Positions 3,001-25,103 of a DNA stretch of 64,000 bases are shown here, one piece after another. The position numbers were made by a program, and so were the translations under genes. Within the stretch, counting starts at the first letter, position 1. Every line of letters starts with the position of its first letter. Origin of the DNA: a virus (Duplodnaviria > Caudoviricetes). The notes beneath the pieces are model-generated. The model worked only from the letters and a program-made list of their open reading frames with translations, ran no database searches and was not told where the DNA came from. The stretch lies in IMG/VR virus record IMGVR_UViG_3300031760_000002, positions 112,840 to 176,839 of that record; one strand, 5' to 3'.

Positions 3001-3370
3001 CAGGACGAAGCCTTGACTGCGAAATGACCGTGTACTCGGACCCGTTGTTTATAATCGTTCCGCGGTCGGTCCAGTACGGAACCTGCATGACGGAATCCTT
3101 GCGCTGGTCCAGCACCTTCCCGGTCTTCTTGTCGGTGAGCCTCCAGGTGCCGACCAGGTTTGTCCTTAGATTCCTGTTCCTCAGGATGGCGTCCTTCTGC
3201 TGCTTCAGCGTGAACTCCTGCGGACCGTCGTATGCGATGTCCACAAGCTCCAGCCTGTAGTTGTCGTCCTCGACTGGAAAACGCTTCTGCATCGCGGAAA
3301 GAACATTGTCGTAAATGTTCCTTCTGGCCGATTTTGCATCGTCGAACGCCCTGAGACCGTCTGGAATCAT
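2..3370 (-). CDS. rpoBC: Phage multisubunit DNA-directed RNA polymerase, beta subunit fused in frame to the beta-prime N-terminus (runs off the left edge)
   Basis: Absent from the ORF track because it has no stop in the window. ATG at 3370 overlaps the upstream TAA. Manual translation gives RpoB motifs in order: VPYWTDRGTIINNGSEYTVISQSRLRPG, KLGLGGIG..EARDVQGDYLGFVD, GQNLRAAILPWNGMSYEDA, VGDKLSPFSGLKGVV, DVLVNPMGFLSR, YMHAFHHLSEKKASAR, QPAKGG, FLNTLRAGGINV. RpoC-like FEPVKGGLFD..WSMIELPEPVPNP follows. Frame checked at 3370, ~2230, ~1040, ~400 and ~10. Confidence 0.93.
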   Translation of the reverse strand, partial: MIPDGLRAFDDAKSARRNIYDNVLSAMQKRFPVEDDNYRLELVDIAYDGPQEFTLKQQKDAILRNRNLRTNLVGTWRLTDKKTGKVLDQRKDSVMQVPYWTDRGTIINNGSEYTVISQSRLRPGVYARRKSNGEYEAQFNIRPGTGHAFHFGLNPETGVMSLQTGQGQIPLYQVLRGLGVDDKSIVKYWGADVAAANSAKADPQAWNKLYSRMAGYKSNPAATQDDKIQFVRDAIAGYEVDPEVVERTMGLRGVDHVTPELLLRASQKLLNVSRGDEKADNRDSPRFSKFYGVEDYFKERIEKNAGRLANTLLYKARRNGNLKSIQRNALNPWVDTIINGSGLAMPGEEANPLSTLEQMSRISKFGLGGIGSPEAVTMEARDVQGDYLGFVDMNSGPESEKVGVDVRAAYNTFLGKDNKLYGEFIDNRTGKLTYVDIATASDGLVAFPGQDMTKPYVIAMKDGIPQRVKRSEVRYTVPSYGHMITSNTNMNIMPTGVQSTRQFYGSKFWSQYLPQKNGEVPLVDSLMPDGKTTWSEYYGRKIGTLKSDVSGVVTKVDDDTVTIKGDDGKTVKVELTKNVPFNRLSAISYFPSVKEGQSVKPGDMIAHSNYTDAKTGALNMGQNLRAAILPWNGMSYEDAWTISEDAAKKLATDRLYSFDHEARNGVQLGRNRYISAFPSKFTKDQIATLDENGIVKPGTVLHRGDPIVLSLGPKVLTSSDKALGKLSKALRNSYTDRSETWEHDYEGTVVDAVKTSSGAKVNVHAQPPVRVGDKLSPFSGLKGVVGTIIPMDKMPRDAVTNEPYDVLVNPMGFLSRTAPNQLMEISLGKVAKATGKQIRIPQLPPPEGWYRWTKAQMDKAGVKESADVFDPVSGKTIKNVGDGWIYMHAFHHLSEKKASARGADGAYTQDEQPAKGGFEGAKKSSGMDLWGMLAHNVPEVIKDTQIIRGTRNDDYWRALQLGLPTPEPDVPFIYNKFLNTLRAGGINVTEKGSITRIMPQTDKDVEKMAGGRVISSSDMVDSDFEPVKGGLFDLGKTGGMAGNQWSMIELPEPVPNPIMEEPVRRVLGLTTSRMEDILSGREKLDGKTGGQALKDALSKIDVDKRIEEASRGITTFRGQKRDD

Positions 3371-8244: not shown

Positions 8245-8739
8245 CTAAATCCCGTACGAAGACGCGCCGTACGATCCGGTCATTCCCCTGAAGAAGCTCG
8301 CAAGGTCTTCGACGCCGGACCCGGACTGGTCCTTCGATTCCGACGGAAGCACGTCGGGGTATTCAACGCGCAGGCCATTGATCAGCTCCACCCGCTGGCT
8401 CAGCATCTCCTTTACCTTGGATACGGGGACTGACCCCTTGGATGCCAGGAACCCGGCGGCCTCCGCCATGGACTGGAACTCCGACTCCGAGCCGTCGGTA
8501 TCGTACACGACGACCTTGGTGCCCGACGCAAGCTTGTCCAGCCCGTCCATCATGCGGCGGAAATCGAACGAAGCCTTCTTCATGTCGGAATGCTTCGTCC
8601 TGGCGAAATGCTCCGCATCCTCGTCCGATATATGCTCGGCGACCTGCCGTATCTTCTTCGGGGCGTGCTTGAGCTTTCCGCGCTTGTACGCGGTTACCAT
8701 TCCGAAAAGGCGCTGCTGCGATGGTGACTTGGCCGGCAT
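8245..8739 (-). CDS. DUF3008-like domain protein
   Basis: MPAKSPSQQRLFGMVTAYKRG...ISDEDAEHFARTKH resembles the DUF3008 pattern; also has MKKAS and LDKLA; GAGG RBS. Confidence 0.65.
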   Translation of the reverse strand: MPAKSPSQQRLFGMVTAYKRGKLKHAPKKIRQVAEHISDEDAEHFARTKHSDMKKASFDFRRMMDGLDKLASGTKVVVYDTDGSESEFQSMAEAAGFLASKGSVPVSKVKEMLSQRVELINGLRVEYPDVLPSESKDQSGSGVEDLASFFRGMTGSYGASSYGI

Positions 8740-8760
8740 TTTGTACCTCTGTTCATGCGC

Positions 8761-8789
8761 ATTATACACAATACGTCACGAAATGTCAT
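8761..8789 (-). promoter_or_regulatory. sigma70-type promoter upstream of the run of genes ending in the RNA polymerase
   Basis: ATGACA-17 nt-TATAAT with extended -10 TG. Confidence 0.65.
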
Positions 8790-13487: not shown

Positions 13488-16439
13488 CTAGACTGAGATT
13501 GTTTCGGAGTTCGCCGGCCTGTACTCCGTCCTGAACGTCTGTCCGACCCTGGAGTCCGAGATCGTCTTGTCCGAGACCCCGCTGCATACGACGACGTTCT
13601 GGAAGTACGCCGAGGAGGTCGTCGTTCCGGTTGGGTTCAGATACACGTTTTTGACACCAGGCTCCATCTTGATCCACCTACAGTACGACTTTGTAGCGGA
13701 TGATGTTCCGAACGCGTTGGAGGAGCATTCGCCCATGAACGTGTTGGCGTAACAGCTGCTGCCGAATGTGTTGGAGTAACAGCTGCTGCCGAACGTGTTG
13801 TAGTTGCAGTCGCTGCCGAACGTGTTGGAGGAGCAGTAGCTCCCGAACGTGTTGGAGGAGCAGTAGCCCCCGAACGTGTTGTAGTTGCAGCCGCTCCCGA
13901 ACGTGTTGGAGGAGCAGTTGTTATCGAACGTGTTGGAGGAGCAGTCGCTGCCGAACGTGTTGGAGTAGCATTCGCTGCCGAACGTGTTGGATAAGCAGTT
14001 GTTATCGAACGTGTTGGAGTAGCATTCGCTGCCGAACGTGTTGGATGAGCAGCTGCCGCCTAACGTGTTGGATGAGCAGTTGCTACCGAACGTGTTGGAT
14101 GAGCAGATGCCGCCTAACGTGTTGGATGAGCAGTCGCTTCCGAACGTGTTGTAGGAGCAGTTGCCGCCTAACGTGTTGGAGTAACAATTGATCTCGAACG
14201 TGTTATAGGAGCAGGAGCTATCGAACGTGCTGTAGGAGCAGGAGCCCCCGAACGTGTTTGAGGAGCAGGAGCTCCCGAACGTGTTGTAGTTGCAATAGCT
14301 ACCGAACGTGTTGGAGGAGCAGTTGCTACCGAACGTGTTGTAGTTGCAATAGCTACCGAACGTGTTGGAGGAGCAGTCGCTGCCGAACGTGTTGGAGTAG
14401 CAGTCGCTGCCGAACGTGTTGGAGTAGCAGTTGTTATCGAACGTGTTGGAGTTGCAGCCGCTCCCGATAAACACTATGCCGTTCAACTTCGGCTTAACAG
14501 AATAGTGCCAAGGTCCAATCTTGTTTCCGTACACAGTACTCGATGCGGTCAACGACATGTCGACCGCATTGCCGGACACGATGTCGGAAAACGTGTAGTG
14601 CCACTGGCTCGTTGATGCGTCGACGATCAGCACCGTGCCGTTGACCGATATGTTCGAGCCCTTGTAGGCGAAGCATTTACCTGTTTCCGAATACGAGAAC
14701 GAACTTACGAGCGATGAAACGTCACTTATCTTCGTGCTCGTGACATTTGTTATGGCCCATCGCTTGAACTGGATCCCCTTGAAGTCGTACGGGCAATCGT
14801 TGCCGAACTCGTCTATCAGCCTGTAGACGACGCCTTTTCCGTTCGTGGAATCCGCCCATGCGAACCTGTTCGTGTCGTTGTCCAGGCAATACTTCAGCTC
14901 CCAAGCCTCGAGATTGCAGCCGTCGAAGTACGTGTCTCCGGCATGCCGAATCGCATACGCGTTCTCGTTGAGCTTGTTGGTCGAGTCGGCTCTGACGATG
15001 ATGTCGAAAGGATGGTTTGCAGACTGTGTGTCTGCCTGAACGGTTGTGGCCACATAGTCCGTAATTCGATACTGCTGCCCAGGAACTAGCGTCCCACCGT
15101 CGCGCAACGCCTTTAGCTCAGACCAGGTCTTCTCGACGACCGCCTGTACAAACGACTTGTCGAGGTTCGCAGACGGAATCTTCCCGTTTCCGTCCACGAT
15201 TACCGTATCTCTGTACCTGAACGTATTAGACGTGTTAAGGTTCCCAAGCGTGCTCTCGCCAAGCTGAATGCTGTTCGTACCGGCTGTATCAACGCCGGCC
15301 CTCTTACCTATCGCGATAGACCCAGCCGCAAGCGACTTGGCGAATGTTCCAATAGCTATAGAACTCTCGCCACCGGAGTTTGTTGTATTGCTGTTGTCAC
15401 CCGCGGAAATCGCTATGGACTTAATCCCGGCGGCCCGGGCTTTGTTGCCTATGCCTACAGAAAACGGGGAATTCGCCGTGGCATCATTTCCGGCCGCAAT
15501 TGAGCTACCGCTCTTCCATCGGTTGAACTCGGCCTCCGAGGTGATGTACCCGGCGTCGTTCGTGAACGCGGACACGTTCGTAGGAACCGTCGGAATGTCG
15601 CTCTTGAGCGCGTAGTCACCGGCAGGCTGAAGCGGTTTGTCCGACTGCGAACCAAGTTTGTATGAAGAGCTAAGTTTAGTTCTAGTGGCTGAAAATTCAA
15701 CGCCAGGAGCGCTGTCCATGCCCTGTGCGACTATGGAAGTTCGTGTATCCGTTGGATAATAGAACTCCGCCAATGAGACACTGGGGGCGGATGAAGGATA
15801 GAACTGATAAAAAGTTTTACCAGTCGGGTCAGTTGTAAATCTAACCTTCGCCTCAGTTGTTACCTCGCCATTTGCCCTGACAATCCACTCACTGAATTCA
15901 GCTATCTCCGTCAGCGTCGCATCGGCCTTGGTGGCTAGGTTGTCCAGGACCGTCTGATCGATCTTGGCGGCGGTGACGGCGCCGTCTGGAATCGATATCT
16001 TCGCGTCGTCGTCGATTGAGATCCCCTGCCCTGGCGTGAGCTTCTTCTGGTACGCGGCCTGCGCCTCATCCTTCGTGAGGTACATGTCCATGGACGGGCC
16101 TAGCGGATCCCATACGGGGTCGTCGTTGCTGGTGTGGCCGGCGCATGCCACGTTCATGCCGTCCTCGACGACATTGTACACGTCGCCGACTTCGACTCCG
16201 TCCTTCGGCAGGTCTTCGTACGTAGGTACGGACCCCTTCCACCTGAGTACCTTCCCGAGCCCTGACAGGGCCTCGTCTATCGCGGACCTTATGCCGTCCG
16301 ACGTAACCGGGTTCGACGACCCGGAGACGGGCTCATCGTCGAACGTAAGCAGGTCCTGCTTGGCGGACAGCAGCCCGTCGATCTCCTCGATCGAGTAGAT
16401 CTTCTTTGCAAAGTCGACGAGTCCGAGCTTCTTGGGCAT
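13488..16439 (-). CDS. Tail fibre / receptor-binding protein with YadA-like head repeats and a 9-aa repeat solenoid
   Basis: 983 aa; FDDEPVSGSSNPVTSDGI linker, SIAIG-type repeats, and 28 tandem xxxCxxNTF-type units. Confidence 0.75.
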   Translation of the reverse strand: MPKKLGLVDFAKKIYSIEEIDGLLSAKQDLLTFDDEPVSGSSNPVTSDGIRSAIDEALSGLGKVLRWKGSVPTYEDLPKDGVEVGDVYNVVEDGMNVACAGHTSNDDPVWDPLGPSMDMYLTKDEAQAAYQKKLTPGQGISIDDDAKISIPDGAVTAAKIDQTVLDNLATKADATLTEIAEFSEWIVRANGEVTTEAKVRFTTDPTGKTFYQFYPSSAPSVSLAEFYYPTDTRTSIVAQGMDSAPGVEFSATRTKLSSSYKLGSQSDKPLQPAGDYALKSDIPTVPTNVSAFTNDAGYITSEAEFNRWKSGSSIAAGNDATANSPFSVGIGNKARAAGIKSIAISAGDNSNTTNSGGESSIAIGTFAKSLAAGSIAIGKRAGVDTAGTNSIQLGESTLGNLNTSNTFRYRDTVIVDGNGKIPSANLDKSFVQAVVEKTWSELKALRDGGTLVPGQQYRITDYVATTVQADTQSANHPFDIIVRADSTNKLNENAYAIRHAGDTYFDGCNLEAWELKYCLDNDTNRFAWADSTNGKGVVYRLIDEFGNDCPYDFKGIQFKRWAITNVTSTKISDVSSLVSSFSYSETGKCFAYKGSNISVNGTVLIVDASTSQWHYTFSDIVSGNAVDMSLTASSTVYGNKIGPWHYSVKPKLNGIVFIGSGCNSNTFDNNCYSNTFGSDCYSNTFGSDCSSNTFGSYCNYNTFGSNCSSNTFGSYCNYNTFGSSCSSNTFGGSCSYSTFDSSCSYNTFEINCYSNTLGGNCSYNTFGSDCSSNTLGGICSSNTFGSNCSSNTLGGSCSSNTFGSECYSNTFDNNCLSNTFGSECYSNTFGSDCSSNTFDNNCSSNTFGSGCNYNTFGGYCSSNTFGSYCSSNTFGSDCNYNTFGSSCYSNTFGSSCYANTFMGECSSNAFGTSSATKSYCRWIKMEPGVKNVYLNPTGTTTSSAYFQNVVVCSGVSDKTISDSRVGQTFRTEYRPANSETISV
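13708..14466 (-). repeat. In-frame 27-bp tandem repeat, 28 copies (GSxCxSNTF)
   Basis: Counted from the translation; plus-strand core CCGAACGTGTTGGAG recurs every 27 nt. Confidence 0.95.
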
Positions 16440-16962: not shown

Positions 16963-16991
16963 AGTATACTATTTGGCGGGCCTCTTTGCAA
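16963..16991 (-). promoter_or_regulatory. sigma70-type promoter upstream of the tail fibre block
   Basis: TTGCAA-17 nt-TATACT. Confidence 0.55.
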
Positions 16992-17280
16992 CGGTCGGTA
17001 TGCGTATGCTCTGGCCGGGTCGTATCGCCAGTGCCGACGGCATCCCGTTCTCCGCCATGACGTCGTCCATGGACACGTTGTACTTCCTGGCTATCCCGGA
17101 GAGGACCTCCCCGGGCCTTACCGTGTGCCTCCTGGTCGTGAGCCAGTCCTTGAAGATCTCGGACGCCCTTTGCAGGTTCGGATCACCCGACTCGGCCAGC
17201 TTCATAAGTCCAGAAGCCAGTTGTTCGGGAATGCCGAACGACTGGCATCTGGACATGAATCCGGACTCGTACGGAGTCAT
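16969..17280 (-). CDS. Leader-tagged LysM domain protein
   Basis: Leader MTPYESGFMSRCQSFG..LMKLA, then LysM HTVRPGEVLSGIARKYNVSMDDVMAENG...IRPGQSIRIP. Confidence 0.85.
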   Translation of the reverse strand: MTPYESGFMSRCQSFGIPEQLASGLMKLAESGDPNLQRASEIFKDWLTTRRHTVRPGEVLSGIARKYNVSMDDVMAENGMPSALAIRPGQSIRIPTVAKRPAK

Positions 17281-17281
17281 G

Positions 17282-17749
17282 CTAGTAGGCTGTCCCCGCC
17301 GGAGGCGTTATCCTGGCCGGGGCTTCCGTTTTCGTTCCAACCGGAAGCGCAGGTTTTCCGTTTCCGGCGAGCTGGCTGGCCTCAGGCGCACCGGAAAGCT
17401 TTCCTCCGGCGTACCCCCCGACGCCACCCACAATACGTCCGAGCCCGCCGCCTAGAAGTGCGCCTCCAATAGCGCCAACCGGCCCAAGCACGGCCCCGCC
17501 AAGCGCCCCCGTGGCCGCTCCGATCCCGGTACCCCACTTGCGGCCCGTGCTCTTGTAGCTCTCCATCGACCTGTTTGGATCTTTCCTGTTAAACAGGTGG
17601 GAAATAAGGCCATATGCGCCTATGCTGCCAAGTCCCCCAAGCAGAAATCGGCCTAAGCCGGCCTGTTTCCTCATCAGCTGGACGGCCGTGTCTTCATCGA
17701 CGCCGTACTCGGCGCACTTCGTGAGAAATCCATGTTCGTATGGTGTCAT
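17282..17749 (-). CDS. Leader-tagged glycine-zipper protein
   Basis: Leader MTPYEHGFLTKCAEYG..LMRKQA, then GxxxG runs (GTGIGAATGALGGAVLGPVGAIGG). Confidence 0.85.
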   Translation of the reverse strand: MTPYEHGFLTKCAEYGVDEDTAVQLMRKQAGLGRFLLGGLGSIGAYGLISHLFNRKDPNRSMESYKSTGRKWGTGIGAATGALGGAVLGPVGAIGGALLGGGLGRIVGGVGGYAGGKLSGAPEASQLAGNGKPALPVGTKTEAPARITPPAGTAY

Positions 17750-17761
17750 TTTGTCTCCTTT

Positions 17762-18583
17762 TTACAGTAAAGCAAGAATCGATTTTATGTTTTTTGTCCT
17801 TGCTTCGTTAGACTTCTGTTTTTTCTGAATACTGTTTCCATATCCGTTCGCAATTGACCCGGTAAGGATCGTGGGCAGCGAAAAATACGAAACGGCATTG
17901 GACTGCACCTGGTTTCTATACGTGTCCAGCGCAGCCTCCCTGATTGGATTTCCCTTGCCCAACCCGGCGTTGTCCCATGCCCTGCTCTCCATCCTCACCA
18001 AATGGGAATCGTCTGGATGTGCTATGTACCTGAGCACCTGCTTCAGGTCCCTTGGTTTCGACAGCAACGACTTGATTACGACGTTCCGCCCATGCCTGGC
18101 CACGTCCTCGGCGTGTCCGAGCTCGTGCATGAGCACATAGGGGTTCAGCTCCCCCTTGTTGCCGAGCGAAACGTACGACATGGCCGGATTGTAATGCGGT
18201 CCGTTGAAAACGGGGGACATGATGACCTTGAGCCTGTCGGCCAGCGACGAATTGGACAATATATGTTTTCTTATGATATTGCCGTCCTGGTACACCGGAA
18301 CGGGCCCGCCGAGCCCGTAATTTCCTCCGATCCCCTTGTAGACGGAATCCGCCCATTCGTATTTCGGAAGTGACTTTCCCGTCTCCGCCATGTGCCTTGC
18401 AACGGCCGCGTCGACCTCGGCCCTGCTTCCGAGCATCCCGGCGCTGATGAGCTTCCTCAACCTACGTGCGCGGACGGCTCCACGCAGCGAAAATATAATC
18501 GGAGCGGAAACACCGGCCGCCACCAGTGACCGGCCGATGCTCTTCGCCACATTCGAATTGGTCCTATCTCCTGCCATTGGCAT
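17762..18583 (-). CDS. Membrane-associated zincin-like metallopeptidase
   Basis: VLMHELGH plus downstream MESRAW; hydrophobic segments near both ends. Confidence 0.7.
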   Translation of the reverse strand: MPMAGDRTNSNVAKSIGRSLVAAGVSAPIIFSLRGAVRARRLRKLISAGMLGSRAEVDAAVARHMAETGKSLPKYEWADSVYKGIGGNYGLGGPVPVYQDGNIIRKHILSNSSLADRLKVIMSPVFNGPHYNPAMSYVSLGNKGELNPYVLMHELGHAEDVARHGRNVVIKSLLSKPRDLKQVLRYIAHPDDSHLVRMESRAWDNAGLGKGNPIREAALDTYRNQVQSNAVSYFSLPTILTGSIANGYGNSIQKKQKSNEARTKNIKSILALL

Positions 18584-18588
18584 TTCTT

Positions 18589-18930
18589 CTATACCGATCC
18601 GGCAATGCGTTCCACTTCCGGAGCCATACTCTTCGTACGTCTCAGAAAATGGTCTCCCAGGACGCCTACGCCGAATCCGGCCCCTATGAACGACGGAACC
18701 CTAAGCATCCCGGCCACGTTCGACAGCATGTTCTTTACGCCGGGCTTGGTCGCCTCGCCGCCAAGCCTGGTGACGAACGGCATTATCCTCTGCCCGAACG
18801 GCGAACCGACAAACTTGGTGAAAGCCTGCAGGAACCCCGCCTCCTTGGCGAGGCCGGACGGGTCTACGCCGGCTTCCGCGCATTTGCACAGGAAGCCGGC
18901 GATGTATGCGTCGCACGGATCGGCCTTCAT
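18589..18930 (-). CDS. Leader-tagged amphipathic/Gly-rich protein
   Basis: Leader DAYIAGFLCKCAEAGVD..LAKEA. Confidence 0.8.
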   Translation of the reverse strand: MKADPCDAYIAGFLCKCAEAGVDPSGLAKEAGFLQAFTKFVGSPFGQRIMPFVTRLGGEATKPGVKNMLSNVAGMLRVPSFIGAGFGVGVLGDHFLRRTKSMAPEVERIAGSV

Positions 18931-18932
18931 GG

Positions 18933-19550
18933 CTATCTCTGCCCTATGGCCACCGTGTCAAGGGAAGGATCCTTGCCCTCCCACATCCTGAGCCTTGCGT
19001 TGGCGTCGGCGGTAGCGCCTCCGATAAGCGCGCCTCCGCCGAGACCATAGCCAAGGCCCTTCAACGCCGCTCCTCGCATCATCTTGCCGCCGTATCCGGC
19101 AAGACGCGCCATATGCTTTCCGTTCCCCGCATGGCGCATCATCATGGATGCGAGCCTTGCTCCCTTGCCTCTCGAGAAGAGCGCAAGGGCCACCGCGGCA
19201 GGAACGCCCAGCAGCGCGCCCTTCAATGCGCCGCTTCCTGCGCCCTTGAGATCGTTCACGATCAGGCGCCGCCTCGTGTAGTCGGTATTGTTGTCGAAGT
19301 ACCGCTGGTTCCTGTCCATGTTGTTCGTATTTCCGGAAGCGGCCATGGACGCCGGAAGGTCGGGCATCTTTCCGCCGACCACGTCCGTGTTGAACGCACG
19401 GCTCCCAAGGTATCCGAGGCCAAGCCCTCCGGCCAGCATGGCCGGGATCTTCCAGTTGAGCGCCTTCTTCTCCAGAAGCTTGCTTCCATCTACGCCGTGC
19501 TCGGCGCACTTGGTGAGAAATCCGTTGCTGTACCTGTCCTGAACGGTCAT
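18933..19550 (-). CDS. Leader-tagged multi-glycine-zipper protein
   Basis: Start re-called at 19550 (GGAGG RBS): MTVQDRYSNGFLTKCAEHGVD..LLEKKA; three Gly-rich hydrophobic helices. Confidence 0.85.
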   Translation of the reverse strand: MTVQDRYSNGFLTKCAEHGVDGSKLLEKKALNWKIPAMLAGGLGLGYLGSRAFNTDVVGGKMPDLPASMAASGNTNNMDRNQRYFDNNTDYTRRRLIVNDLKGAGSGALKGALLGVPAAVALALFSRGKGARLASMMMRHAGNGKHMARLAGYGGKMMRGAALKGLGYGLGGGALIGGATADANARLRMWEGKDPSLDTVAIGQR

Positions 19551-19567
19551 TTTGTGTACCTCCGTTG

Positions 19568-20275
19568 TTATTGTATGTAACGTCTTCCGCCCGGCGTGGC
19601 GAACGGGTTGCCGGAAGGCTGCTGAGGCGCCGGCGGCTGAAACTGCTGTCCTCGCATCTGATCTCCGGCCGACGTTCCACGGATAGGCTGCTGCGGCTGC
19701 TGAACCTGGTTGGTGTTCACTACGCCACTTTGTCCACGAACGGGCTGCACGTTCGGATTCCAGTTCGGGGCCGTATACTTGGCAGCCTCGGTCGTCTGCC
19801 ACTGGGTGTTTCCACGGGCGAACCTCTGGTTCGGATCCACGTCCTGGATGCCCTTGACGGTCTCGACCCTGCCGCCGGTATTGAGCCTGTTCACGCCAAG
19901 CGTACGGGCGTTCGCGCGATTCTTCTCCTCCTGCATCCTCTGCATGACTTCCTGCGCGTTCTCGTCGATGCTTCGGCCATACTCCTCCTCCTGCCAGTCC
20001 TTGGAGTGGAAGTTCCTGTTGAACCACCTGCCGAGAGCGGTACCGGCCTTTCCGGAATCCTTCCTGGCCATGAGCTGCTCGAACCTGGCCCTGTCGCCTT
20101 CGCTCATGTTCTGGGTATACTGGCCCATGATGTCCTTCTGCGTACCGGTGATGGACTCGTTCCTATGGCCGTCCGAATCCCAGAAATACGCCCTCTTCAT
20201 TAGAAAATGCGCAACTTCCTCCGGAATGCCGGATTCGGCGCACTTGGTGAGAAATCCCTGTTCGTATGGTGTCAT
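19568..20275 (-). CDS. Leader-tagged Gln-rich protein
   Basis: Leader MTPYEQGFLTKCAESG..LMKRA; AAGGAG RBS. Confidence 0.85.
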   Translation of the reverse strand: MTPYEQGFLTKCAESGIPEEVAHFLMKRAYFWDSDGHRNESITGTQKDIMGQYTQNMSEGDRARFEQLMARKDSGKAGTALGRWFNRNFHSKDWQEEEYGRSIDENAQEVMQRMQEEKNRANARTLGVNRLNTGGRVETVKGIQDVDPNQRFARGNTQWQTTEAAKYTAPNWNPNVQPVRGQSGVVNTNQVQQPQQPIRGTSAGDQMRGQQFQPPAPQQPSGNPFATPGGRRYIQ

Positions 20276-20290
20276 TTTTGTCTCCTTTTT

Positions 20291-20518
20291 CTACGAAATC
20301 CCAAATCTAGCCTTCGCCTCTTCCCAATCGCTGTCCGATTTGTTCGCGAAACACCAGGTATCGTCCACTATCCTGGACATGAACGCCACCGGTTCTCCCC
20401 TGTTGCTGCGAATGACCACGGTCCTTGCCTTGTTCGTGTCAAGCAACGGCCTGTCGAACACGTTGTCCGACAGGACCGTAACATTGCCACGGGCGTAGTC
20501 TGAACTTTGCTCCGACAT
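20291..20518 (-). CDS. Hypothetical protein
   Basis: 75 aa, TAATG-coupled to the upstream gene. Confidence 0.7.
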   Translation of the reverse strand: MSEQSSDYARGNVTVLSDNVFDRPLLDTNKARTVVIRSNRGEPVAFMSRIVDDTWCFANKSDSDWEEAKARFGIS

Positions 20519-21183
20519 TAATTAACACCCGGTGTCCTCAGGCTCTGCTGCAGCTTCTTGCGCCTGAGCGCCTCGACCTTATTGACCGCAGCCTCGAGAT
20601 TAGGATCATTTCCTGGCTGCCCGGGCATTACCAGGCCAGACCTATGAATTACGGTTCGCTGGGCGGTCCTCGGTGCAGGGCTTGTAACGGTCCTTGGAGC
20701 CGGGCTTGTAACGGTCCTTGGAGCCGGGCTTGTAACGGTTCTTGGTGCAGGGCTTGTAACGGTCCTGGGCGCAGCGGGCCTTGGCTGTTGAGCCGGCCTC
20801 GCCGGATATGGCCTAGGCTGCGGAGCTGGCCTTGGTTGCGGAGCCGGTCTAGCCGGGGCTGGCCTCGGCTGTGGAGCCGGTCTAGCCGGGGCTGGCCTCG
20901 GCTGTGGAGCCGGTCTAGCCGGGGCTGGCCTCGGCTGTGGAGCCGGTTGTGGCGTAGGTTGAGAGCCACTTGCAGAACCGGTCGGAACGCCTGGAGCCGG
21001 CAGATCGTCGCCAGGATGCCAGTTCGGATCCATCAGCCTTGCCTTGTTCTGCTGCCATTGGTCATGGGTCATTGACTGGCCGCCTATCTGCAGGTCGGAC
21101 ATCTTCAAAAGACCGAAAGCCACTTCCGGGTGAATCCCGAATGCGGCGCACTTGGTTAGAAATCCCTGTTCGTATGGTGTCAT
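20518..21183 (-). CDS. Leader-tagged Pro-rich repeat protein
   Basis: Leader MTPYEQGFLTKCAAFG..LLKMS; PAPQPRPAPAR and PAPRTVTS repeats. Confidence 0.85.
   Translation of the reverse strand: MTPYEQGFLTKCAAFGIHPEVAFGLLKMSDLQIGGQSMTHDQWQQNKARLMDPNWHPGDDLPAPGVPTGSASGSQPTPQPAPQPRPAPARPAPQPRPAPARPAPQPRPAPARPAPQPRPAPQPRPYPARPAQQPRPAAPRTVTSPAPRTVTSPAPRTVTSPAPRTVTSPAPRTAQRTVIHRSGLVMPGQPGNDPNLEAAVNKVEALRRKKLQQSLRTPGVN
20668..20950 (-). repeat. In-frame 33-bp (x3 plus partial copies) and 24-bp (x4) tandem repeats
   Basis: Plus-strand GGAGCCGGTCTAGCCGGGGCTGGCCTCGGCTGT and GGGCTTGTAACGGT units; boundaries approximate. Confidence 0.85.
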
Positions 21184-22103
21184 CTGAAGATTTTTCCTCC
21201 GAATCCCTTCCCGAATTGTGTCTTTATCGGCGTGTTCGGTTCGCCACGCATTTTTTTATCAAGCTTCGACCACACCTCGGAATAGGTACGGCCTTTGCCA
21301 TAGGATTGTATCAGCTTGTTCGTAAAAATTCCACCTGTCCCTGCTCCGTACGAGTATTCATTCTCCTGCGACGCCGACCAGCACAGCAGCCTCGGACCCG
21401 CCTTTTCGTACCTGTCCAGCGCCTGTTCGACGTACCTGCTCTTCTCGTAGTCCGGAAGCGACATGGCATCGGATTTTGCCCTTGAAAGGTCCAAATCCCT
21501 GTCGAATTCGTACTTGTGTAGGAACCTACGAAACGTAAACGGGTACGGCCCCGTCTTCATGTCTATGGACTCCTTGCGGTCTATCGCACGGTACATCGTA
21601 CCGGAATGGCAGCAATCGAATATGCACATCACCCTGCCCTTCGACTTGCATATTATGGACCATATCCGGTCGTCCAGAATCATTCTGTCGTACGGGCAAA
21701 GATATTCGTTCCTCCCGTCCGTCTCCCCGAACCTGTTCTTGGATTCGTTCTCGTCCCTTCCACCATGACCGGAGTAATAGAATATGCACAGGTCGTGCCC
21801 AACGGCCGCTTCCAACGCCGAAACGACGTTTGCCGCGGTGGCCTGCTGGTTCAGAAGCAACGTTAGGCCGCCGGACGCGTATTGCTTCAACAGCGAAGCC
21901 ATGTTGGACGCGTCAATGCCCGCGCCGGGGCAGTTTCCGGCGAACCTGGACTTCTCGAGGCCGACGCATACCACCGCCGTGTCCTTCGACTCCTCGGACC
22001 TGTCCGAAAGCTTCGACTTTATCCTGCCCCAGTTCGCAAAAAGGGTGAATCCCGCTACCGCGAGCCCCGAGGCTCCGAAAAGAATCTCGCCAAGCATGCG
22101 CAA
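21180..22103 (-). CDS. Caspase-family (C14, meta/orthocaspase-like) peptidase with N-terminal membrane anchor
   Basis: Catalytic dyad motifs FYYSGHGG and IFDCCHSG; EYLCPYD..ILDD; GGIFT; hydrophobic N-terminus. Confidence 0.88.
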   Translation of the reverse strand: MRMLGEILFGASGLAVAGFTLFANWGRIKSKLSDRSEESKDTAVVCVGLEKSRFAGNCPGAGIDASNMASLLKQYASGGLTLLLNQQATAANVVSALEAAVGHDLCIFYYSGHGGRDENESKNRFGETDGRNEYLCPYDRMILDDRIWSIICKSKGRVMCIFDCCHSGTMYRAIDRKESIDMKTGPYPFTFRRFLHKYEFDRDLDLSRAKSDAMSLPDYEKSRYVEQALDRYEKAGPRLLCWSASQENEYSYGAGTGGIFTNKLIQSYGKGRTYSEVWSKLDKKMRGEPNTPIKTQFGKGFGGKIFR

Positions 22104-22113
22104 ACCTCCGTTC

Positions 22114-22335
22114 TCAAAGGATGAAAAACAGCCAAGACAGCATAAGAAATCCCTCCAGCCACAAAATGGACCTCATCATCGACTCGACGACGAAGTCGTA
22201 CCAGTCGTACCGGACGCCCGGTTTCCTGGGAGGATCCCTGGAAACGGCCAGTACGACGAACGACGCCGCCATCACCGACGCGGATACGGACAGCCCTCCG
22301 TAAAGCAAATACCGTATGAAATCCTGTATTGACAT
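22114..22335 (-). CDS. Small two-helix membrane protein (holin-like)
   Basis: Start re-called at 22335 (TAATG overlap with the portal stop); two hydrophobic segments in 73 aa. Confidence 0.55.
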   Translation of the reverse strand: MSIQDFIRYLLYGGLSVSASVMAASFVVLAVSRDPPRKPGVRYDWYDFVVESMMRSILWLEGFLMLSWLFFIL

Positions 22336-24998
22336 TAACCGCCCTGCTGCATCTGCTGGATCATCATTTGCTGTCCTTGCGACGACAGCTGCTGCCTCTG
22401 GTCTTGAAGCTGCCCCTTCACCATGGCCCACAGCGTCGGGTTGGTCTGCTTGATTGACGCGAGGGTCTGCCTTGTATGGGCCGGATTGTTCTCGGCGATC
22501 AGCTGCTGCGCGATCTGCTCGGCCTGCTGCGCAACGTCGCCGGGGGTGGCGCCTACCTGGCCGCCGGGACCGTTCATGCCGCTCCCGCCTCCTCCGCCAC
22601 CGCCTCCGCCGCCTCCCATGGCGCCGTTGGCCTGCTGGGCCTGGGCGTCCGCCATGGCCTTCTCCTGCATCTTCTGGACGTCCTGCTGCTCCTTGATGAT
22701 CCTGCGCTGCTCGTCGAGGTAGTCGATGCCGATCGTCCTGTACGCGGTCTGCTTCGAGATGTCCTGCCCTGCGGCGGCCTGCATCTGGATGCCCTTCTTC
22801 TCGAGGTCGTCGGCGAGCGTGATCGGGGTAAGATGGACTTCGACCGGATCCCACTGCATGTAGTTGGAGATCTCGTCGGTGATCCACTGCAGGATGTTGT
22901 TTATGCCGGAAACGAACGGGTTCCATTCGCGTTCGAACAGCCTGAGCGCAACCGGCGCGGCCTGCAGCGACAGGGTGCCGGCGAACAGCTCCTGGGGGAA
23001 TCCAAGCGAGTTCAGGAGCTCCTGGGTCGCCTCCTGGATCGACTCCTTTGGCGCAAGCTGCTTTGCCTCTCCTCCGATCAGCTCGTACCCGATGGCCCAC
23101 GGTGCCACTTCGATGGAGGTCATGTTCATACGCTTCTTCTCCACCATGGACGACATGGCGGCTATGAAGGTCTGCATGGAAATCTGGGTGAGCGGATCCT
23201 GGCCTCCCGGCGCGTTTCCCTGCGGGTACAGGATGCGGAACGGCACGATGAAGTCCAACGCAATCGCTTCGTCGTAACGACGCATGAGCTGGATGTAGTA
23301 TGCCAGCTTGAAGTAGGGAAGGATCGGCGGGATGCCCCAGCCCTTGATCGGAAGACCGGCGAAAACGGCGTCCCTGAGATGGTATATCTTGTCCGGATCG
23401 AACTCGAAGAGGTGCTCCTCCCCGTCCCCCGTGTGGTCGTCGTTAAGGCAGGTCTCTATGAATCCCCAGGACACGTTGTTGATGTAGAACGGGTCTCCCT
23501 TCCTGACCCTTTCGACGAACTTGGGATCCATCTTGTAGTAGTACTTCAGCTCTCCGGTGATGTCGTTCACCTTCAGCTTTATCCTTTTAGGATCCCAACG
23601 GTTTATCCTTATCTTGGAAGTATCCCTTGAACGCCTGTCCACGCGCTTGAACGGAACCTTGCCATGCTTGCACTTCGGGCATTCGCAAATGAATTCGCCT
23701 TTGGTGGCCGAGAACTCGTATTTTATCTTGGATATATGCACCTGTGCACCGCAGCCGGGGCACTGCAGGTACCTCTCGAACGGAAGATACACGGAGACGA
23801 AGGAGTTTCCGTAGCAGTTTCCCGTCACGAGCCCTCCTTCGAGGGCGAACGTATGCGTTGCCGGTTCTACGCAGCAGAACACCTCCTCCGTACGGTACCT
23901 GCTTCCGATCCTGGTCGGCGAGGTGGCTATCCTGGCCTTCACGGTCTTGGACGTCCTGTACAGGTCCTTCTGGTCCTGGCACAGGAAATCGTCCTCGAGA
24001 AGGCTTGAAATGCGGAACGGCATGTAGTACCGTTCGTAGTCGGACCATATCCTGCGCTTCACGATCGACTTTGGCACAAGCCCCAGCTGTATCATGCCCT
24101 CCCGCACCGCGGAAAGCTTCTTCCTGTCGTTGTGGGTAAGGAAGAACGAATTGGCCTTCGGCTGGAAGAATCCCGATACCGAGGCCATTCCGCCGAAGAA
24201 TCCGTACCAATACGACCGGGACGCGTTCTTTGGCACGTCCTTCATGGAGGCGTCGACCTCCAGACCGTATGCGGACTTGTACTCCTCAAGGAACCTGGAT
24301 TCGTAATAAAGCGGCTTCTCCCTGAGGCCGAAGACTATCCCGTGCAGCCCTCCGGCCACGTAGTCCCGGTTCTTTTCCGGCCTTGGAACCATGACGACCG
24401 GTATCCGGCTGCTCTTCTTGAGCTCGTCCGTCCTGCACTGGACGTAGGCGTGCTCCTCCTTGCCGTTGCACTTCCTGTACCACCTGTGGTCGGCCGTGAC
24501 CCTGCACTCCGTGCCGTTCCCGAAATGGACGTCGACCGTCTTCTGCCTGCCGAACGACTTGAACGACGCGACATGCCACTTTCCGTCTATCGACAGCACC
24601 TTGGCCCTCTTTCCGGCCAGGTCCCTTATCTTGAACACGCCCTTGTCCGTGACAACCCTTGTGCTTCCGCCGAAGCAGAAATAGTCCTTGCCTATGTCCT
24701 GCAGCCTCTGGATGATGTTGATGTCCTTGTCGAACACCTTCTCGTACTTCTCGCGTACGTCGTCGGCCACGTCGTTGATCTCGACATCGGTGAGAAAGTA
24801 CGATACGACCCTGTTTATGACGGCCATGAACGGCGGTATGGTGAGCATCAGGTACTCGGACCACGTGAACGCGTCGTTGATGTTCGTCGGTATGTACGCC
24901 GACGCGATGTCCATGAACGGGTTCGGATACTTGTAGGCGTCCGGAAACCTGCCCCCGTCCCACGGTGTGCCTGAAAACGCGGATGTATTCTGTGTCAT
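22335..24998 (-). CDS. Portal protein containing an intein
   Basis: After removing the intein: KDYFCYGNSFV, DKIYHLR..GWGIPPI and ELLNSLGFPQELF match portal-family patterns; Gln/Gly-rich C-terminal tail. Confidence 0.75.
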   Translation of the reverse strand: MTQNTSAFSGTPWDGGRFPDAYKYPNPFMDIASAYIPTNINDAFTWSEYLMLTIPPFMAVINRVVSYFLTDVEINDVADDVREKYEKVFDKDINIIQRLQDIGKDYFCFGGSTRVVTDKGVFKIRDLAGKRAKVLSIDGKWHVASFKSFGRQKTVDVHFGNGTECRVTADHRWYRKCNGKEEHAYVQCRTDELKKSSRIPVVMVPRPEKNRDYVAGGLHGIVFGLREKPLYYESRFLEEYKSAYGLEVDASMKDVPKNASRSYWYGFFGGMASVSGFFQPKANSFFLTHNDRKKLSAVREGMIQLGLVPKSIVKRRIWSDYERYYMPFRISSLLEDDFLCQDQKDLYRTSKTVKARIATSPTRIGSRYRTEEVFCCVEPATHTFALEGGLVTGNCYGNSFVSVYLPFERYLQCPGCGAQVHISKIKYEFSATKGEFICECPKCKHGKVPFKRVDRRSRDTSKIRINRWDPKRIKLKVNDITGELKYYYKMDPKFVERVRKGDPFYINNVSWGFIETCLNDDHTGDGEEHLFEFDPDKIYHLRDAVFAGLPIKGWGIPPILPYFKLAYYIQLMRRYDEAIALDFIVPFRILYPQGNAPGGQDPLTQISMQTFIAAMSSMVEKKRMNMTSIEVAPWAIGYELIGGEAKQLAPKESIQEATQELLNSLGFPQELFAGTLSLQAAPVALRLFEREWNPFVSGINNILQWITDEISNYMQWDPVEVHLTPITLADDLEKKGIQMQAAAGQDISKQTAYRTIGIDYLDEQRRIIKEQQDVQKMQEKAMADAQAQQANGAMGGGGGGGGGGGSGMNGPGGQVGATPGDVAQQAEQIAQQLIAENNPAHTRQTLASIKQTNPTLWAMVKGQLQDQRQQLSSQGQQMMIQQMQQGG
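23817..24677 (-). mobile_element. Intein (287 aa) with degenerate LAGLIDADG-like endonuclease region
   Basis: Block A CFGGSTRVVT, block B VTADHRW, blocks F/G EEVFCCVEPATHTFALEGGLVTGN followed by +1 Cys; YVAGGLHGIVFG and YGFFGGMASVSG helices. Confidence 0.9.
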
Positions 24999-25103
24999 GT
25001 CGCTATGAAGATGGTTGCGGGTCCAGGAATCGAACCTGGTTCGAGGGATTATGAATCCCACGTGTTTCCGTTACACCAACCCGCGGTTTATGGAATTTGC
25101 ACC

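What the first reader, a model, noticed from the sequence alone, without database searches (positions are those of the whole stretch)
16969..21183. Array of six unrelated cargo genes sharing one ~30-aa N-terminal leader: candidate capsid-targeting / cargo delivery system
Seen: six genes start with the same leader, Y-x-x-GF-x-x-K/R-C-x-x-x-G-(I/V)...L-x(1-2)-K-x-A/S. The copies are 21183 MTPYEQGFLTKCAAFG..LLKMS, 20275 MTPYEQGFLTKCAESG..LMKRA, 19550 ..YSNGFLTKCAEHG..LLEKKA, 18930 ..YIAGFLCKCAEAG..LAKEA, 17749 MTPYEHGFLTKCAEYG..LMRKQA and 17280 MTPYESGFMSRCQSFG..LMKLA. Similarity stops at K-x-A/S, and the bodies are unrelated (Pro-rich repeat, Gln-rich, glycine zippers, LysM). The array lies between the portal and tail fibre genes. 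Known: T4 internal proteins use a short cleaved N-terminal capsid-targeting sequence. Inference: a modular address tag loads interchangeable proteins into the prohead and is clipped off for delivery into the host or its envelope.
Basis: partly seen in the sequence, partly recalled or inferred. Interest (0 to 1): 0.88.

Follow-up and report, generated by a model that had tools for sequence, protein, structure and literature searches.

The report
Shared cleavable head-loading leader on phage cargo
A 177-kb uncultured phage and its relatives put the same 30-residue helical hairpin on the front of many unrelated small proteins; sequence statistics indicate that it is a removable tag that loads them into the virus head, like phage T4's capsid-targeting sequence but a different, larger tag.

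Summary
The six genes share a roughly 29-residue N-terminal module, MT(P/R)YEQGFLTKCAEYG(V/I)..[LM]xKx[AS]. Four more copies lie elsewhere in this 176,839-bp phage genome. The profile finds 596 protein clusters in metagenomes, nearly all with the module at residue 1, on unrelated bodies. Five complete relatives carry 4-12 matches each, some always just after the portal gene.

AlphaFold2 folds the module as a helix-turn-helix hairpin (pLDDT 92-96). No Pfam, PHROG, NCBIfam or PDB family covers it.

The genome encodes a prohead protease with the T4 gp21 fold (Z 12.2). The motif that ends the leader, hydrophobic-x-K-x-A/S/G, behaves in three ways:
- It is enriched twofold in scaffold, protease and other head-block proteins only (z 7.1).
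- It sits near the N-terminus of the major capsid protein (MCP), the scaffold and the protease.
- It is depleted twofold in the bodies of 174 leader proteins (z -6.3), while Arg and reversed controls are enriched.

This is the pattern expected for proteins exposed to a site-specific maturation protease and clipped once.

Packaging, cleavage and ejection are inferred, not shown. The neighbouring caspase-like peptidase is not the leader peptidase. Other first-stage notes on this same genome raised the same idea. Verdict: a new variant of T4-type capsid-targeting propeptides.

The parts
20518..21183 (-). Leader gene 1 (221 aa). The leader is residues 1-29 (window 21097-21183) and ends in LLKMS. 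The body is a Pro-rich PAPQPR/PRTVTS repeat.
   Evidence: HMM E 1.6e-19; weak compositional resemblance to the TonB spacer
19568..20275 (-). Leader gene 2 (235 aa). The leader is residues 1-29 (window 20189-20275) and ends in LMKRA. The body is Gln/Asn-rich.
   Evidence: E 1.8e-20
18933..19550 (-). Leader gene 3 (205 aa, ATG at 19550 behind GGAGG). The leader is residues 1-30 (window 19461-19550) and ends in LEKKA. The body has glycine-zipper, weakly hydrophobic segments.
   Evidence: (E 5e-16); the same 205-aa call is in the database (P0027)
18589..18930 (-). Leader gene 4 (113 aa). The leader is residues 1-31 (window 18838-18930), has a 5-residue N-terminal extension and ends in LAKEA.
   Evidence: E 4.6e-15
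17282..17749 (-). Leader gene 5 (155 aa). The leader is residues 1-30 (window 17660-17749) and ends in MRKQA. The body is a glycine zipper.
   Evidence: E 3e-22; PHROG and NCBIfam glycine-zipper-type weak hits
16969..17280 (-). Leader gene 6 (103 aa). The leader is residues 1-29 (window 17194-17280) and ends in LMKLA. The body is a LysM domain with no signal peptide.
   Evidence: Pfam LysM E 6e-13. The AF2 model has leader helices 3-14 and 19-31 with pLDDT 92-96.
22335..25061 (-). Portal protein (908 aa) with an intein-like insert at residues 129-415 (window 23817-24677).
   Evidence: 31-34% identity to the Arash portal and Vibrio phage D181 on either side of the insert. The insert matches a stretch annotated as ribonucleotide reductase in Thermobifida phage P318. 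PHROG portal E 4e-6. Boundaries C...GN|C. A portal followed by leader genes is seen in five of five relatives.
21180..22103 (-). Caspase-family (C14) peptidase with a His/Cys dyad and a hydrophobic N-terminus. Its stop overlaps the start of leader gene 1. It is not part of the conserved system.
   Evidence: Pfam Peptidase_C14 E 1e-18; NCBIfam caspase E 7e-10; present in only 3 of 5 leader-bearing relatives, and in one of them (G002) about 60 kb from the main leader array
20291..20518 (-). 75-aa gene without a leader, inside the array. It is conserved in relatives.
   Evidence: tblastn hits in L017, L005 and L006
17762..18583 (-). 273-aa HExxH (MHELGH) protein without a leader, inside the array. 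It is a candidate zinc peptidase cargo or helper.
   Evidence: a 36% identical homologue lies directly after two leader genes in L004; no family hit
13488..16439 (-). 983-aa repeat protein (about two dozen C-x-x-N-T-F-G units). It is a probable fibre or adhesin and bounds the array downstream.
   Evidence: YadA_head E 3e-5, below the curated cut-off

Best explanation
The ~29-residue module is an N-terminal propeptide that folds as a helix-turn-helix hairpin. It probably works as a portable prohead-loading tag. It brings otherwise unrelated proteins into the assembling head core. There the phage's gp21-type prohead protease cuts at the hydrophobic-x-K-x-A/S site that closes the hairpin, and probably also at the invariant L-T-K-C-A inside it. 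The body is thereby freed inside the capsid. The bodies are glycine-zipper membrane segments, LysM, Pro-rich rods and many orphans, and they have no secretion signals. They are then most likely ejected with the DNA and the virion RNA polymerase and act in the host envelope.

Shown: the tag, its fold prediction, its spread, the protease fold and the motif statistics.

Inferred: binding to the core, cleavage, packaging and ejection.
For: (1) There are ten N-terminal copies in this genome. The profile finds 596 clusters at E<=1e-3 in 1.84 billion proteins, almost all starting at residue 1. Five of five complete relatives (143-211 kb) have 4-12 matches each.

(2) Selection acts on the peptide. Copies 6, 8 and 9 differ at half or more of third codon positions, and the upstream DNA is unrelated.

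(3) AF2 gives helices 3-14 and 19-31 with pLDDT 92-96.

(4) The bodies are diverse. 187 bodies fall into 135 BLAST clusters, 109 of them singletons. Recurrent features are glycine zippers and LysM.

(5) The genes lie next to the portal or inside the head block that also holds the RNA polymerase genes. The Arash homologues of those polymerase subunits are the most abundant virion proteins by mass spectrometry (PMC10585845).

(6) The 469-aa protein at genome 97325-98734 has the T4 gp21 protease fold (VIA Z 12.2, rmsd 3.0, 148 residues), with herpes assemblins next at Z 5-6.6. It is 27% identical to a Gordonia phage 'capsid maturation protease'.

(7) Phi-x-K-x-[ASG] occurs 104 times against 51.8 expected in head-region proteins (z 7.1). 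In the rest of the genome it is 136 against 137. Arg, Glu, Gln, Asp, reversed and re-spaced controls are flat.

(8) The motif lies within the first 34 residues of 22 of 56 genes in the head and portal regions, including MCP, scaffold and protease, against 7 of 142 elsewhere (Fisher 9e-9).

(9) The sites are conserved. Protease sites 29, 285 and 325 are kept in 49-53 of 54 homologues. KKA is kept in all five MCPs, and the scaffold sites are invariant. The invariant LKVAS sits in the disordered linker after the protease domain.

(10) The same enrichment is seen in four relatives and in cultured Salmonella phage Arash.

(11) The bodies of 174 leader proteins avoid the motif: 58 against 122 expected (z -6.3). 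K-x-A-[ASG] is 13 against 58 (z -6.5). The Arg version is enriched (197 against 142) and so is the reversed motif. The depletion survives local shuffles and exclusion of this genome.

(12) T4 gives the precedent: short N-terminal capsid-targeting sequences on diverse internal proteins, removed by gp21 (PMC9026906).
Against: - There is no proteomic or experimental evidence for any tagged protein, and no cultured phage carries the tag.
- The motif statistics show selection that fits protease exposure, but not the cut itself or its exact bond.
- K-x-A lies in the last turn of a confidently predicted helix, which is not an ideal protease substrate unless it unfolds.
- 14 of 195 hits carry 2-3 copies, some internal. 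A pure N-terminal signal does not need this, although polyprotein processing would explain it.
- The Arash virion table lists 100% coverage for several motif-bearing head proteins. Taken at face value this argues against N-terminal trimming there, but that table also lists 116 'virion' proteins.
- The binding partner is unknown.
Confidence: 0.65

Rival explanations
1. The hairpin is a permanent docking or oligomerisation domain. It stays on the mature proteins and anchors them to a virion component (capsid interior, portal, tail or surface) or to each other, without being cleaved.
For: The hairpin is predicted with high confidence as a folded unit. Tandem and internal copies would raise avidity. 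Invariant small and hydrophobic residues (G7, F8, C12, A13, G16) suggest a tight packing interface. Leader genes always lie just after the portal gene.
Against: It does not explain three things. The module ends exactly at a motif that is enriched in scaffold and protease. The bodies are twofold depleted of that motif while the Arg and reversed versions are enriched. The module itself holds two copies of the motif.
Confidence: 0.15
2. The leader is a removable safety or solubility propeptide. It keeps membrane-active or wall-binding bodies harmless in the producing cell and is cut off in the head, but it is not itself the address. Loading would happen by other means.
For: Many bodies are glycine-zipper or weakly hydrophobic (64 of 187). 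The cleavage signature is the same as for the main reading.
Against: The bodies share nothing else that could serve as an address. One identical hairpin is unlikely to mask such different bodies. Hydrophilic bodies (Gln-rich, Pro-rich, LysM) carry it too.
Confidence: 0.1
3. The array is a set of non-virion effectors (lysis, envelope remodelling or anti-defence). They are processed by the adjacent membrane-anchored caspase-like peptidase, which cuts after the conserved Lys.
For: The C14 peptidase has an intact dyad and is translationally coupled to leader gene 1. Metacaspase-type enzymes cut after Lys or Arg (established knowledge).
Against: Caspase homologues are absent from two complete relatives that have 6-8 leader matches, and lie about 60 kb from the main array in another. 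The motif pattern follows the head block and a gp21-fold protease instead. It also holds in Arash.
Confidence: 0.05
4. The similarity is mainly a DNA-level cassette (ribosome-binding site plus the first codons) that serves recombination and has no role as a peptide.
For: Copies 1, 2 and 5 share 41-44 of the first 48 coding bases and 11-14 of 16 third positions. Copies 2 and 5 also share the AAAAAGGAGACAAA ribosome-binding stretch.
Against: Copies 6, 8 and 9 keep the peptide with half or more of third positions changed, and upstream DNA is otherwise unrelated. Hundreds of distant homologues keep the peptide. Recent copying between three genes fits cassette shuffling of a functional tag.
Confidence: 0.03

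Closest known systems
Phage T4 capsid-targeting sequences (CTS) of internal proteins IPI-III and Alt, removed by prohead protease gp21
   Same: Both are N-terminal tags shared by otherwise divergent proteins. Both end at the prohead protease's motif. The protease here has the gp21 fold. In T4 the cargo genes are variable between relatives and the cargo is delivered with the DNA (PMC9026906).
   Different: The T4 CTS is 10-19 residues, loosely conserved and cut at L/I-x-E. Here the tag is a ~29-residue, very highly conserved predicted helical hairpin with an invariant Cys, and the inferred site is Phi-x-K-x-A. There are 4-12 matches per genome and more than 100 unrelated bodies. No experiment exists.
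phiKZ/SPN3US giant-phage head maturation (gp175/gp245 protease, N-terminal propeptides, ejection proteins, virion RNA polymerase)
   Same: Many head proteins lose N-terminal propeptides, and propeptides can hold several motif copies. The virion carries a multisubunit RNA polymerase and ejected proteins (PMC10052503; Arash mass spectrometry).
   Different: In SPN3US a shared propeptide sequence across unrelated proteins is not described, and propeptide function there is still open. The inferred motif here has Lys at P3 and Ala or Ser at P1.
Herpesvirus assemblin maturation and release sites (Ala|Ser)
   Same: The protease fold is related (Z 5-6.6). The invariant L-K-V-A-S in a disordered linker after the protease domain recalls the assemblin release site with Ala at P1 and Ser at P1' (own knowledge).
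   Different: The relation is distant. No cargo-tag system is known there.
P22 scaffolding protein C-terminal helix-loop-helix coat-binding domain, and encapsulin cargo-loading peptides
   Same: Each is a small helical or peptide module that suffices to load a fused protein into an HK97-fold shell (own knowledge).
   Different: Those modules are C-terminal and not cleaved, and each sits on one protein family. No sequence relation is known. The partner of the present hairpin is unknown.

Membership tests
T4-type capsid-targeting propeptide system | The same tag sits at the extreme N-terminus of several otherwise unrelated phage proteins | tested here: met
   Ten copies in the genome, and 181 of 195 database hits carry a single copy, almost always at residue 1. 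Bodies are unrelated.
T4-type capsid-targeting propeptide system | The phage encodes a gp21/assemblin-fold prohead protease | tested here: met
   AF2 model against 5jbl_C: Z 12.2, rmsd 3.0, 148 of 166 residues; Foldseek's top three hits are gp21.
T4-type capsid-targeting propeptide system | The tag ends at the protease's cleavage motif, which is also used in scaffold, MCP and protease | tested here: inconclusive
   The statistics fit: enrichment z 7.1 in head proteins, N-terminal placement (Fisher 9e-9), depletion z -6.3 in bodies. No cleavage has been observed.
T4-type capsid-targeting propeptide system | Tagged proteins are in the virion with the tag removed, and the tag suffices for packaging | not testable with these tools
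   No cultured carrier of the tag. The co-fold job gave no answer (see Tried and rejected).
T4-type capsid-targeting propeptide system | Sequence homology to the T4 CTS | not tested
   Length (29 against 10-19 residues) and inferred cut motif (K-x-A against L-x-E) differ. This is an analogue, not a homologue.
Any curated protein family covering the leader (Pfam, PHROGs, NCBIfam, PDB) | A profile hit over residues 1-30 | tested here: not met
   No hit over the leader in Pfam, PHROGs or NCBIfam. The PDB profile search gave a best E of 0.62.
SPN3US/phiKZ propeptide processing | The gp245/gp175 cleavage logo described in that paper, with Ser at P1' | tested here: not met
   The Glu-centred control motif Phi-x-E-x-[ASG] is not enriched in head proteins (46 against 45.6), whereas the Lys motif is. 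The comparison rests.
Sec, Tat or lipoprotein signal peptides | A hydrophobic core of 7-15 residues after a basic N-region; a lipobox for lipoproteins | tested here: not met
   The sequence shows charged residues throughout (E5, K11, E14, D18, K27) and a predicted helical hairpin. No dedicated signal-peptide predictor was run.
Caspase-processed substrates of the neighbouring C14 peptidase | The peptidase co-occurs with the leader family | tested here: not met
   The peptidase is absent from 2 of 5 complete leader-bearing relatives.

The most novel reading that the evidence does not exclude
The hairpin is a self-sufficient, transferable head-loading tag for a whole clade of 140-210-kb uncultured phages. 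It has a built-in release code: two protease sites that chop it up. It defines a fast-evolving 'cargo-ome' of more than 100 unrelated, mostly envelope-active proteins that these phages inject. Fusing the 29 residues to any protein that lacks Phi-x-K-x-A would then package and deliver it.
Probability: 0.4. Interest if true: 0.78.

Novelty: new variant of a known kind. Interest (0 to 1): 0.68.

Why it matters
If the reading holds, one short profile lists the injected or internal proteins of an entire uncultured phage clade. These proteins are otherwise orphans and are usually the hardest virion components to recognise. The reading also gives a predicted specificity, Phi-x-K-x-A/S/G, for a Pfam-less branch of gp21/assemblin-type prohead proteases. 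That branch reaches cultured phages such as Salmonella phage Arash, where the prediction can be tested at once.

The contrast between motif enrichment in scaffold proteins and motif avoidance in cargo bodies is a general, purely computational way to detect capsid-internal proteins and protease codes in metagenomic phages. A structured, highly conserved tag with a defined release site would also be a natural handle for packaging foreign proteins in phage heads.

Tried and rejected
- **Co-fold of scaffold, MCP and leader:** verdict 'no answer', ipSAE 0.03. This is neither evidence for nor against binding. The three-chain design was also unlike the tool's calibration.
- **Searches for the leader in cultured phages and curated families:** tblastn of the leader against 50,697 GenBank phage records found nothing at E<=1. 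Pfam, PHROGs and NCBIfam gave no hit over the leader. A PDB profile search gave no hit better than E 0.62.
- **Bodies of copies 7 and 10 against phage records:** no match.
- **Sequence searches for the protease and MCP:** Pfam and PDB found nothing. Only the fold search, tblastn and Atlas features identified them.
- **Caspase-like peptidase as the leader peptidase:** rejected, because its distribution is patchy.
- **Homology between the leader and the N-terminus of the conserved 128-aa head protein:** both have K-x-A-E-Y at residues 11-15, but hhalign aligns only 7 columns (E 0.065, probability 0.85%), so this is not supported.
- **Weak internal leader-like stretch in the 425-aa DUF6582 protein:** HMM E 0.03. 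I treat it as a lead only.
- **Whole-record search of L004 and L005:** the records are not held.
- **Arash proteome table:** it gives coverage only, with no N-terminal peptides, and 116 of 272 proteins are called virion proteins. It cannot settle cleavage.
- **Paper search for the motif string:** no hits.
- **RiPP-type leader peptides:** considered and set aside. The bodies are 31-620 residues, no modifying enzyme is nearby, and the motif pattern follows the head genes.


Full report
**Setting.** The window is the last 64 kb of a single-contig phage genome of 176,839 bp. Almost all genes are on the minus strand. The nearest cultured relatives are distant: Salmonella phage Arash and Vibrio phages D181, D148 and D69. 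The portal is 31-34% identical to theirs, the MCP 27% and the protease about 40%. There is no nucleotide-level match in GenBank phages.

**The observation.** The six ORFs are as described. They align only over the first ~30 residues. Their bodies show no pairwise similarity (best BLASTP E 0.098).

An HMM of the six leaders, run on all six-frame ORFs of the genome, recovers them at E 1e-15 to 1e-22. It also finds four more N-terminal copies, at genome 48442-49377, 102382-103176, 106937-107341 and 109348-109830. In addition there is a weak internal look-alike in a 425-aa DUF6582 protein. The array is therefore part of a genome-wide set of at least ten tagged genes.

The conservation is on the peptide. 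Copies 6, 8 and 9 differ from the others at half or more of third codon positions, and the upstream DNA is unrelated apart from ribosome-binding sites. Copies 1, 2 and 5 share 41-44 of the first 48 bases, so some copying between genes is recent.

**Spread.** A profile of the ten leaders finds 596 clusters (50% identity representatives) at E<=1e-3 among 1.84 billion proteins. A word-indexed search finds 197 proteins of 78-515 residues, many on contigs of 120-207 kb. None carries a Pfam domain over the leader.

In 190 hits the consensus is M-T-R-Y-E-Q-G-F-L-T-K-C-A-E-Y-G-V-D-x-x-x-A-x-x-L-L-K-x-A. G7, F8, K11, C12, A13 and G16 are 98-100% conserved. Information content drops to background after residue ~29. 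[LM]-x-K-x-[AS] closes the module in 94% of hits, against about 9% expected by chance.

Fourteen of 195 hits carry two or three copies. Five complete IMG/VR relatives (143-211 kb) have 4-12 matches each, in clusters, and in all five some lie just after the portal gene.

The 187 bodies fall into 135 BLAST clusters, 109 of them singletons. A third have GxxxGxxxG. The only recurrent Pfam families are glycine zippers, LysM, collagen and an NMB0315 domain.

**Structure.** With a 105-sequence alignment, AlphaFold2 folds gene 6 with helices at residues 3-14 and 19-31 and a pLDDT of 92-96 over residues 1-30. This is a helix-turn-helix hairpin. Y4, F8, C12 and Y15 would lie on one face, and A22, L25, L26 and A29 on the other helix (inference from the helical periodicity). 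No curated family or solved structure matches it.

**The head machinery.**
- Gene at genome 94077-95069 is the MCP. Atlas features score 0.98 against 'major capsid protein' clusters. It is 26.6% identical over 95% of its length to the annotated Arash MCP.
- The 469-aa protein at 97325-98734 has no sequence-family hit. Its AF2 model (54 sequences, pLDDT 83) has an N-terminal domain (residues 1-207) that matches T4 gp21 at Z 12.2 (rmsd 3.0, 148 residues), with herpesvirus assemblins next at Z 5-6.6. It is also 27% identical to a Gordonia phage 'capsid maturation protease'.
- A disordered linker (207-233) with an invariant L-K-V-A-S separates the protease domain from a helical C-domain.
- Between protease and MCP lies a 416-aa acidic, Ala/Glu/Gln-rich scaffold-like protein.
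- Three tagged genes sit in this block, among large orphan proteins and the RNA polymerase genes. The Arash homologues of those polymerase subunits are the most abundant virion proteins by mass spectrometry (PMC10585845).

**The motif test.** The motif was taken from the leader ends, [LMFIVY]-x-K-x-[ASG], and tested on other proteins against composition-preserving shuffles.

*Enrichment in head proteins.* Head-region proteins hold 104 copies against 51.8 expected (z 7.1). The rest of the genome holds 136 against 137. The Arg, Glu, Gln and Asp versions, the reversed motif and the re-spaced variants are flat. The top proteins are:
- scaffold, 9 against 1.9;
- protease, 10 against 2.4;
- a 463-aa protein, 10 against 2.9;
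- a 128-aa protein, 4 against 0.7.

*N-terminal placement.* The motif lies within the first 34 residues of 22 of 56 genes in the head and portal regions, against 7 of 142 elsewhere (Fisher 9e-9). These include MCP (FVKKA, 31), scaffold (YVKEA, 15) and protease (LHKQA, 29).

*Conservation.* Protease sites 29, 285 and 325 are kept in 49-53 of 54 homologues. KKA is kept in all five MCPs. LAKIA and LTKRAG are invariant in scaffolds down to 30% identity. The enrichment recurs in four relatives (protease 12-13 against 2.3). It also recurs in cultured Arash: gp220 has 10 against 1.7, gp223 has 8 against 1.2, and N-terminal IVKVAS, LLKAAG, LTKQAA and MTKQAS lie at residues 19-30.

*Depletion in cargo bodies.* The bodies of 174 tagged proteins (25,658 residues) hold 58 copies against 122 expected (z -6.3). 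K-x-A-[ASG] is 13 against 58 (z -6.5). The Arg version is enriched (197 against 142) and so is the reversed motif (155 against 122). The depletion survives shuffling within 15- and 8-residue windows and exclusion of this genome.

This pattern fits a site-specific maturation protease:
- The motif is enriched where proteins are to be degraded or trimmed.
- It is placed at the end of the shared tag.
- It is avoided in the parts that must survive.

The leader itself holds a second copy, the invariant L-T-K-C-A at residues 9-13. The tag may therefore be cut into two small pieces.

**Mechanism (inferred).** This follows the T4 model, in which 10-19-residue N-terminal sequences give internal proteins affinity for the scaffold core and are then removed by gp21 (PMC9026906). 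Here the hairpin would dock cargo to a core component, and the gp21-fold protease would release the bodies inside the head.

LysM without any export signal can reach peptidoglycan only from outside. This, together with the glycine-zipper bodies, points to ejection into the envelope. That step is the least supported. The partner of the hairpin is unknown.

**What does not fit or is open.**
- Tandem and internal copies exist.
- K-x-A lies at the end of a predicted helix.
- The Arash coverage table is uninformative.
- The caspase-like peptidase next to the array is not part of the system: it is in 3 of 5 relatives and about 60 kb from the main array in one. Its role and that of the HExxH protein are unknown.
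- In relative G001 the LysM orthologue has lost helix 1 of the tag but keeps L-A-K-L-A-E.

**Comparison and novelty.** The system works like T4's capsid-targeting sequences and like propeptide processing in giant phages. It is not a sequence member of either. The tag is longer, structured and far more conserved, with an invariant Cys. The inferred cut site has Lys at P3 and Ala or Ser at P1, closer to assemblin sites than to L-x-E or the SPN3US logo. No paper in the library mentions the motif, and no curated family covers it. I rate it a new variant of a known kind.

Other first-stage notes on overlapping windows of this genome proposed the same tag and the K-x-A code. Two of their quoted strings led me to the protease and MCP genes. 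All claims above rest on tests made here.

Noticed in passing
window 23817-24677 (portal residues 129-415): The portal gene carries a 287-residue insert. It begins with Cys and ends in G-N followed by Cys, and it is absent from the Arash and Vibrio portals. It is 31.5% identical to a stretch annotated as ribonucleotide reductase in Thermobifida phage P318, so it is a probable intein. Relatives G001, G002 and G005 keep it. G003 lacks it (664-aa frame). G004 has a different, longer frame.
   Followed up: partly
L003 (Salmonella phage Arash 144-149 kb: gp220-gp223): Cultured phage Arash lacks the GFLTKCAE tag. It shares the protease (about 40% identity) and the same hydrophobic-x-K-x-A enrichment and N-terminal placement in its mass-spectrometry-confirmed head proteins. 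It is therefore a ready model for testing the protease code.
   Followed up: partly
window 21180-22103: A caspase-family peptidase has an intact His/Cys dyad and a hydrophobic N-terminus, and overlaps the first tagged gene. Its distribution among relatives is patchy (3 of 5). NCBIfam places it nearest the 'EACC1-associated' caspases. Its function in a phage is unexplained.
   Followed up: partly
window 17762-18583; L004 11006-12025: An HExxH (MHELGH) protein without the tag sits inside the array. A 36% identical homologue sits directly behind two tagged genes in another phage. No family hit.
   Followed up: no
genome 95682-96068 (L018:11683-12069, minus): A conserved 128-aa head protein lies between scaffold and MCP. 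It starts MDTDYDTLAEKVAEYIG, with K-x-A-E-Y at exactly the leader's residues 11-15, and has four motif copies. The profile comparison is not significant, so a common origin with the tag is only a hint.
   Followed up: yes
genome 52248-53525 (L001:8249-9526, minus): A 425-aa DUF6582 protein has an internal RIFTKCAEYGIQP stretch and eight motif copies (z 3.4). It may be a further core or scaffold-like protein or a decayed tag.
   Followed up: partly
window 8245-8769; hits P0041, P0125; L015 1200-1640: A DUF3008 gene lies in the window. In two metagenomic proteins a DUF3008 domain is fused in front of the leader, the only recurrent case where the tag is not N-terminal.
   Followed up: no
L015 986-1282 (relative G001): The orthologue of the LysM cargo (59% identical body) has only a 16-residue N-terminal peptide. 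It keeps L-A-K-L-A-E but has lost the GFxxKCAE helix.
   Followed up: partly
window 17702-17749, 20228-20275, 21136-21183: Leader copies 1, 2 and 5 are nearly identical in DNA over the first 48 bases (41-44 of 48). Copies 2 and 5 also share the AAAAAGGAGACAAA stretch upstream. This points to recent copying or gene conversion between tagged genes.
   Followed up: yes
window 13488-16439: The 983-aa protein contains about two dozen tandem units of C-x-x-N-T-F-G, probably a beta-helical fibre, and a weak YadA-head repeat hit.
   Followed up: no
window 2-3370 and genome 109980-116209; L005 4198-8616: RNA polymerase beta and the N-terminal part of beta' are fused in one 1456-aa protein, followed by a separate 619-aa beta' C-terminal part. 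A relative has the same layout, with Pfam Rpb2_6 plus Rpb1 domains on one 1472-aa product. Both genes lie inside the head block.
   Followed up: partly
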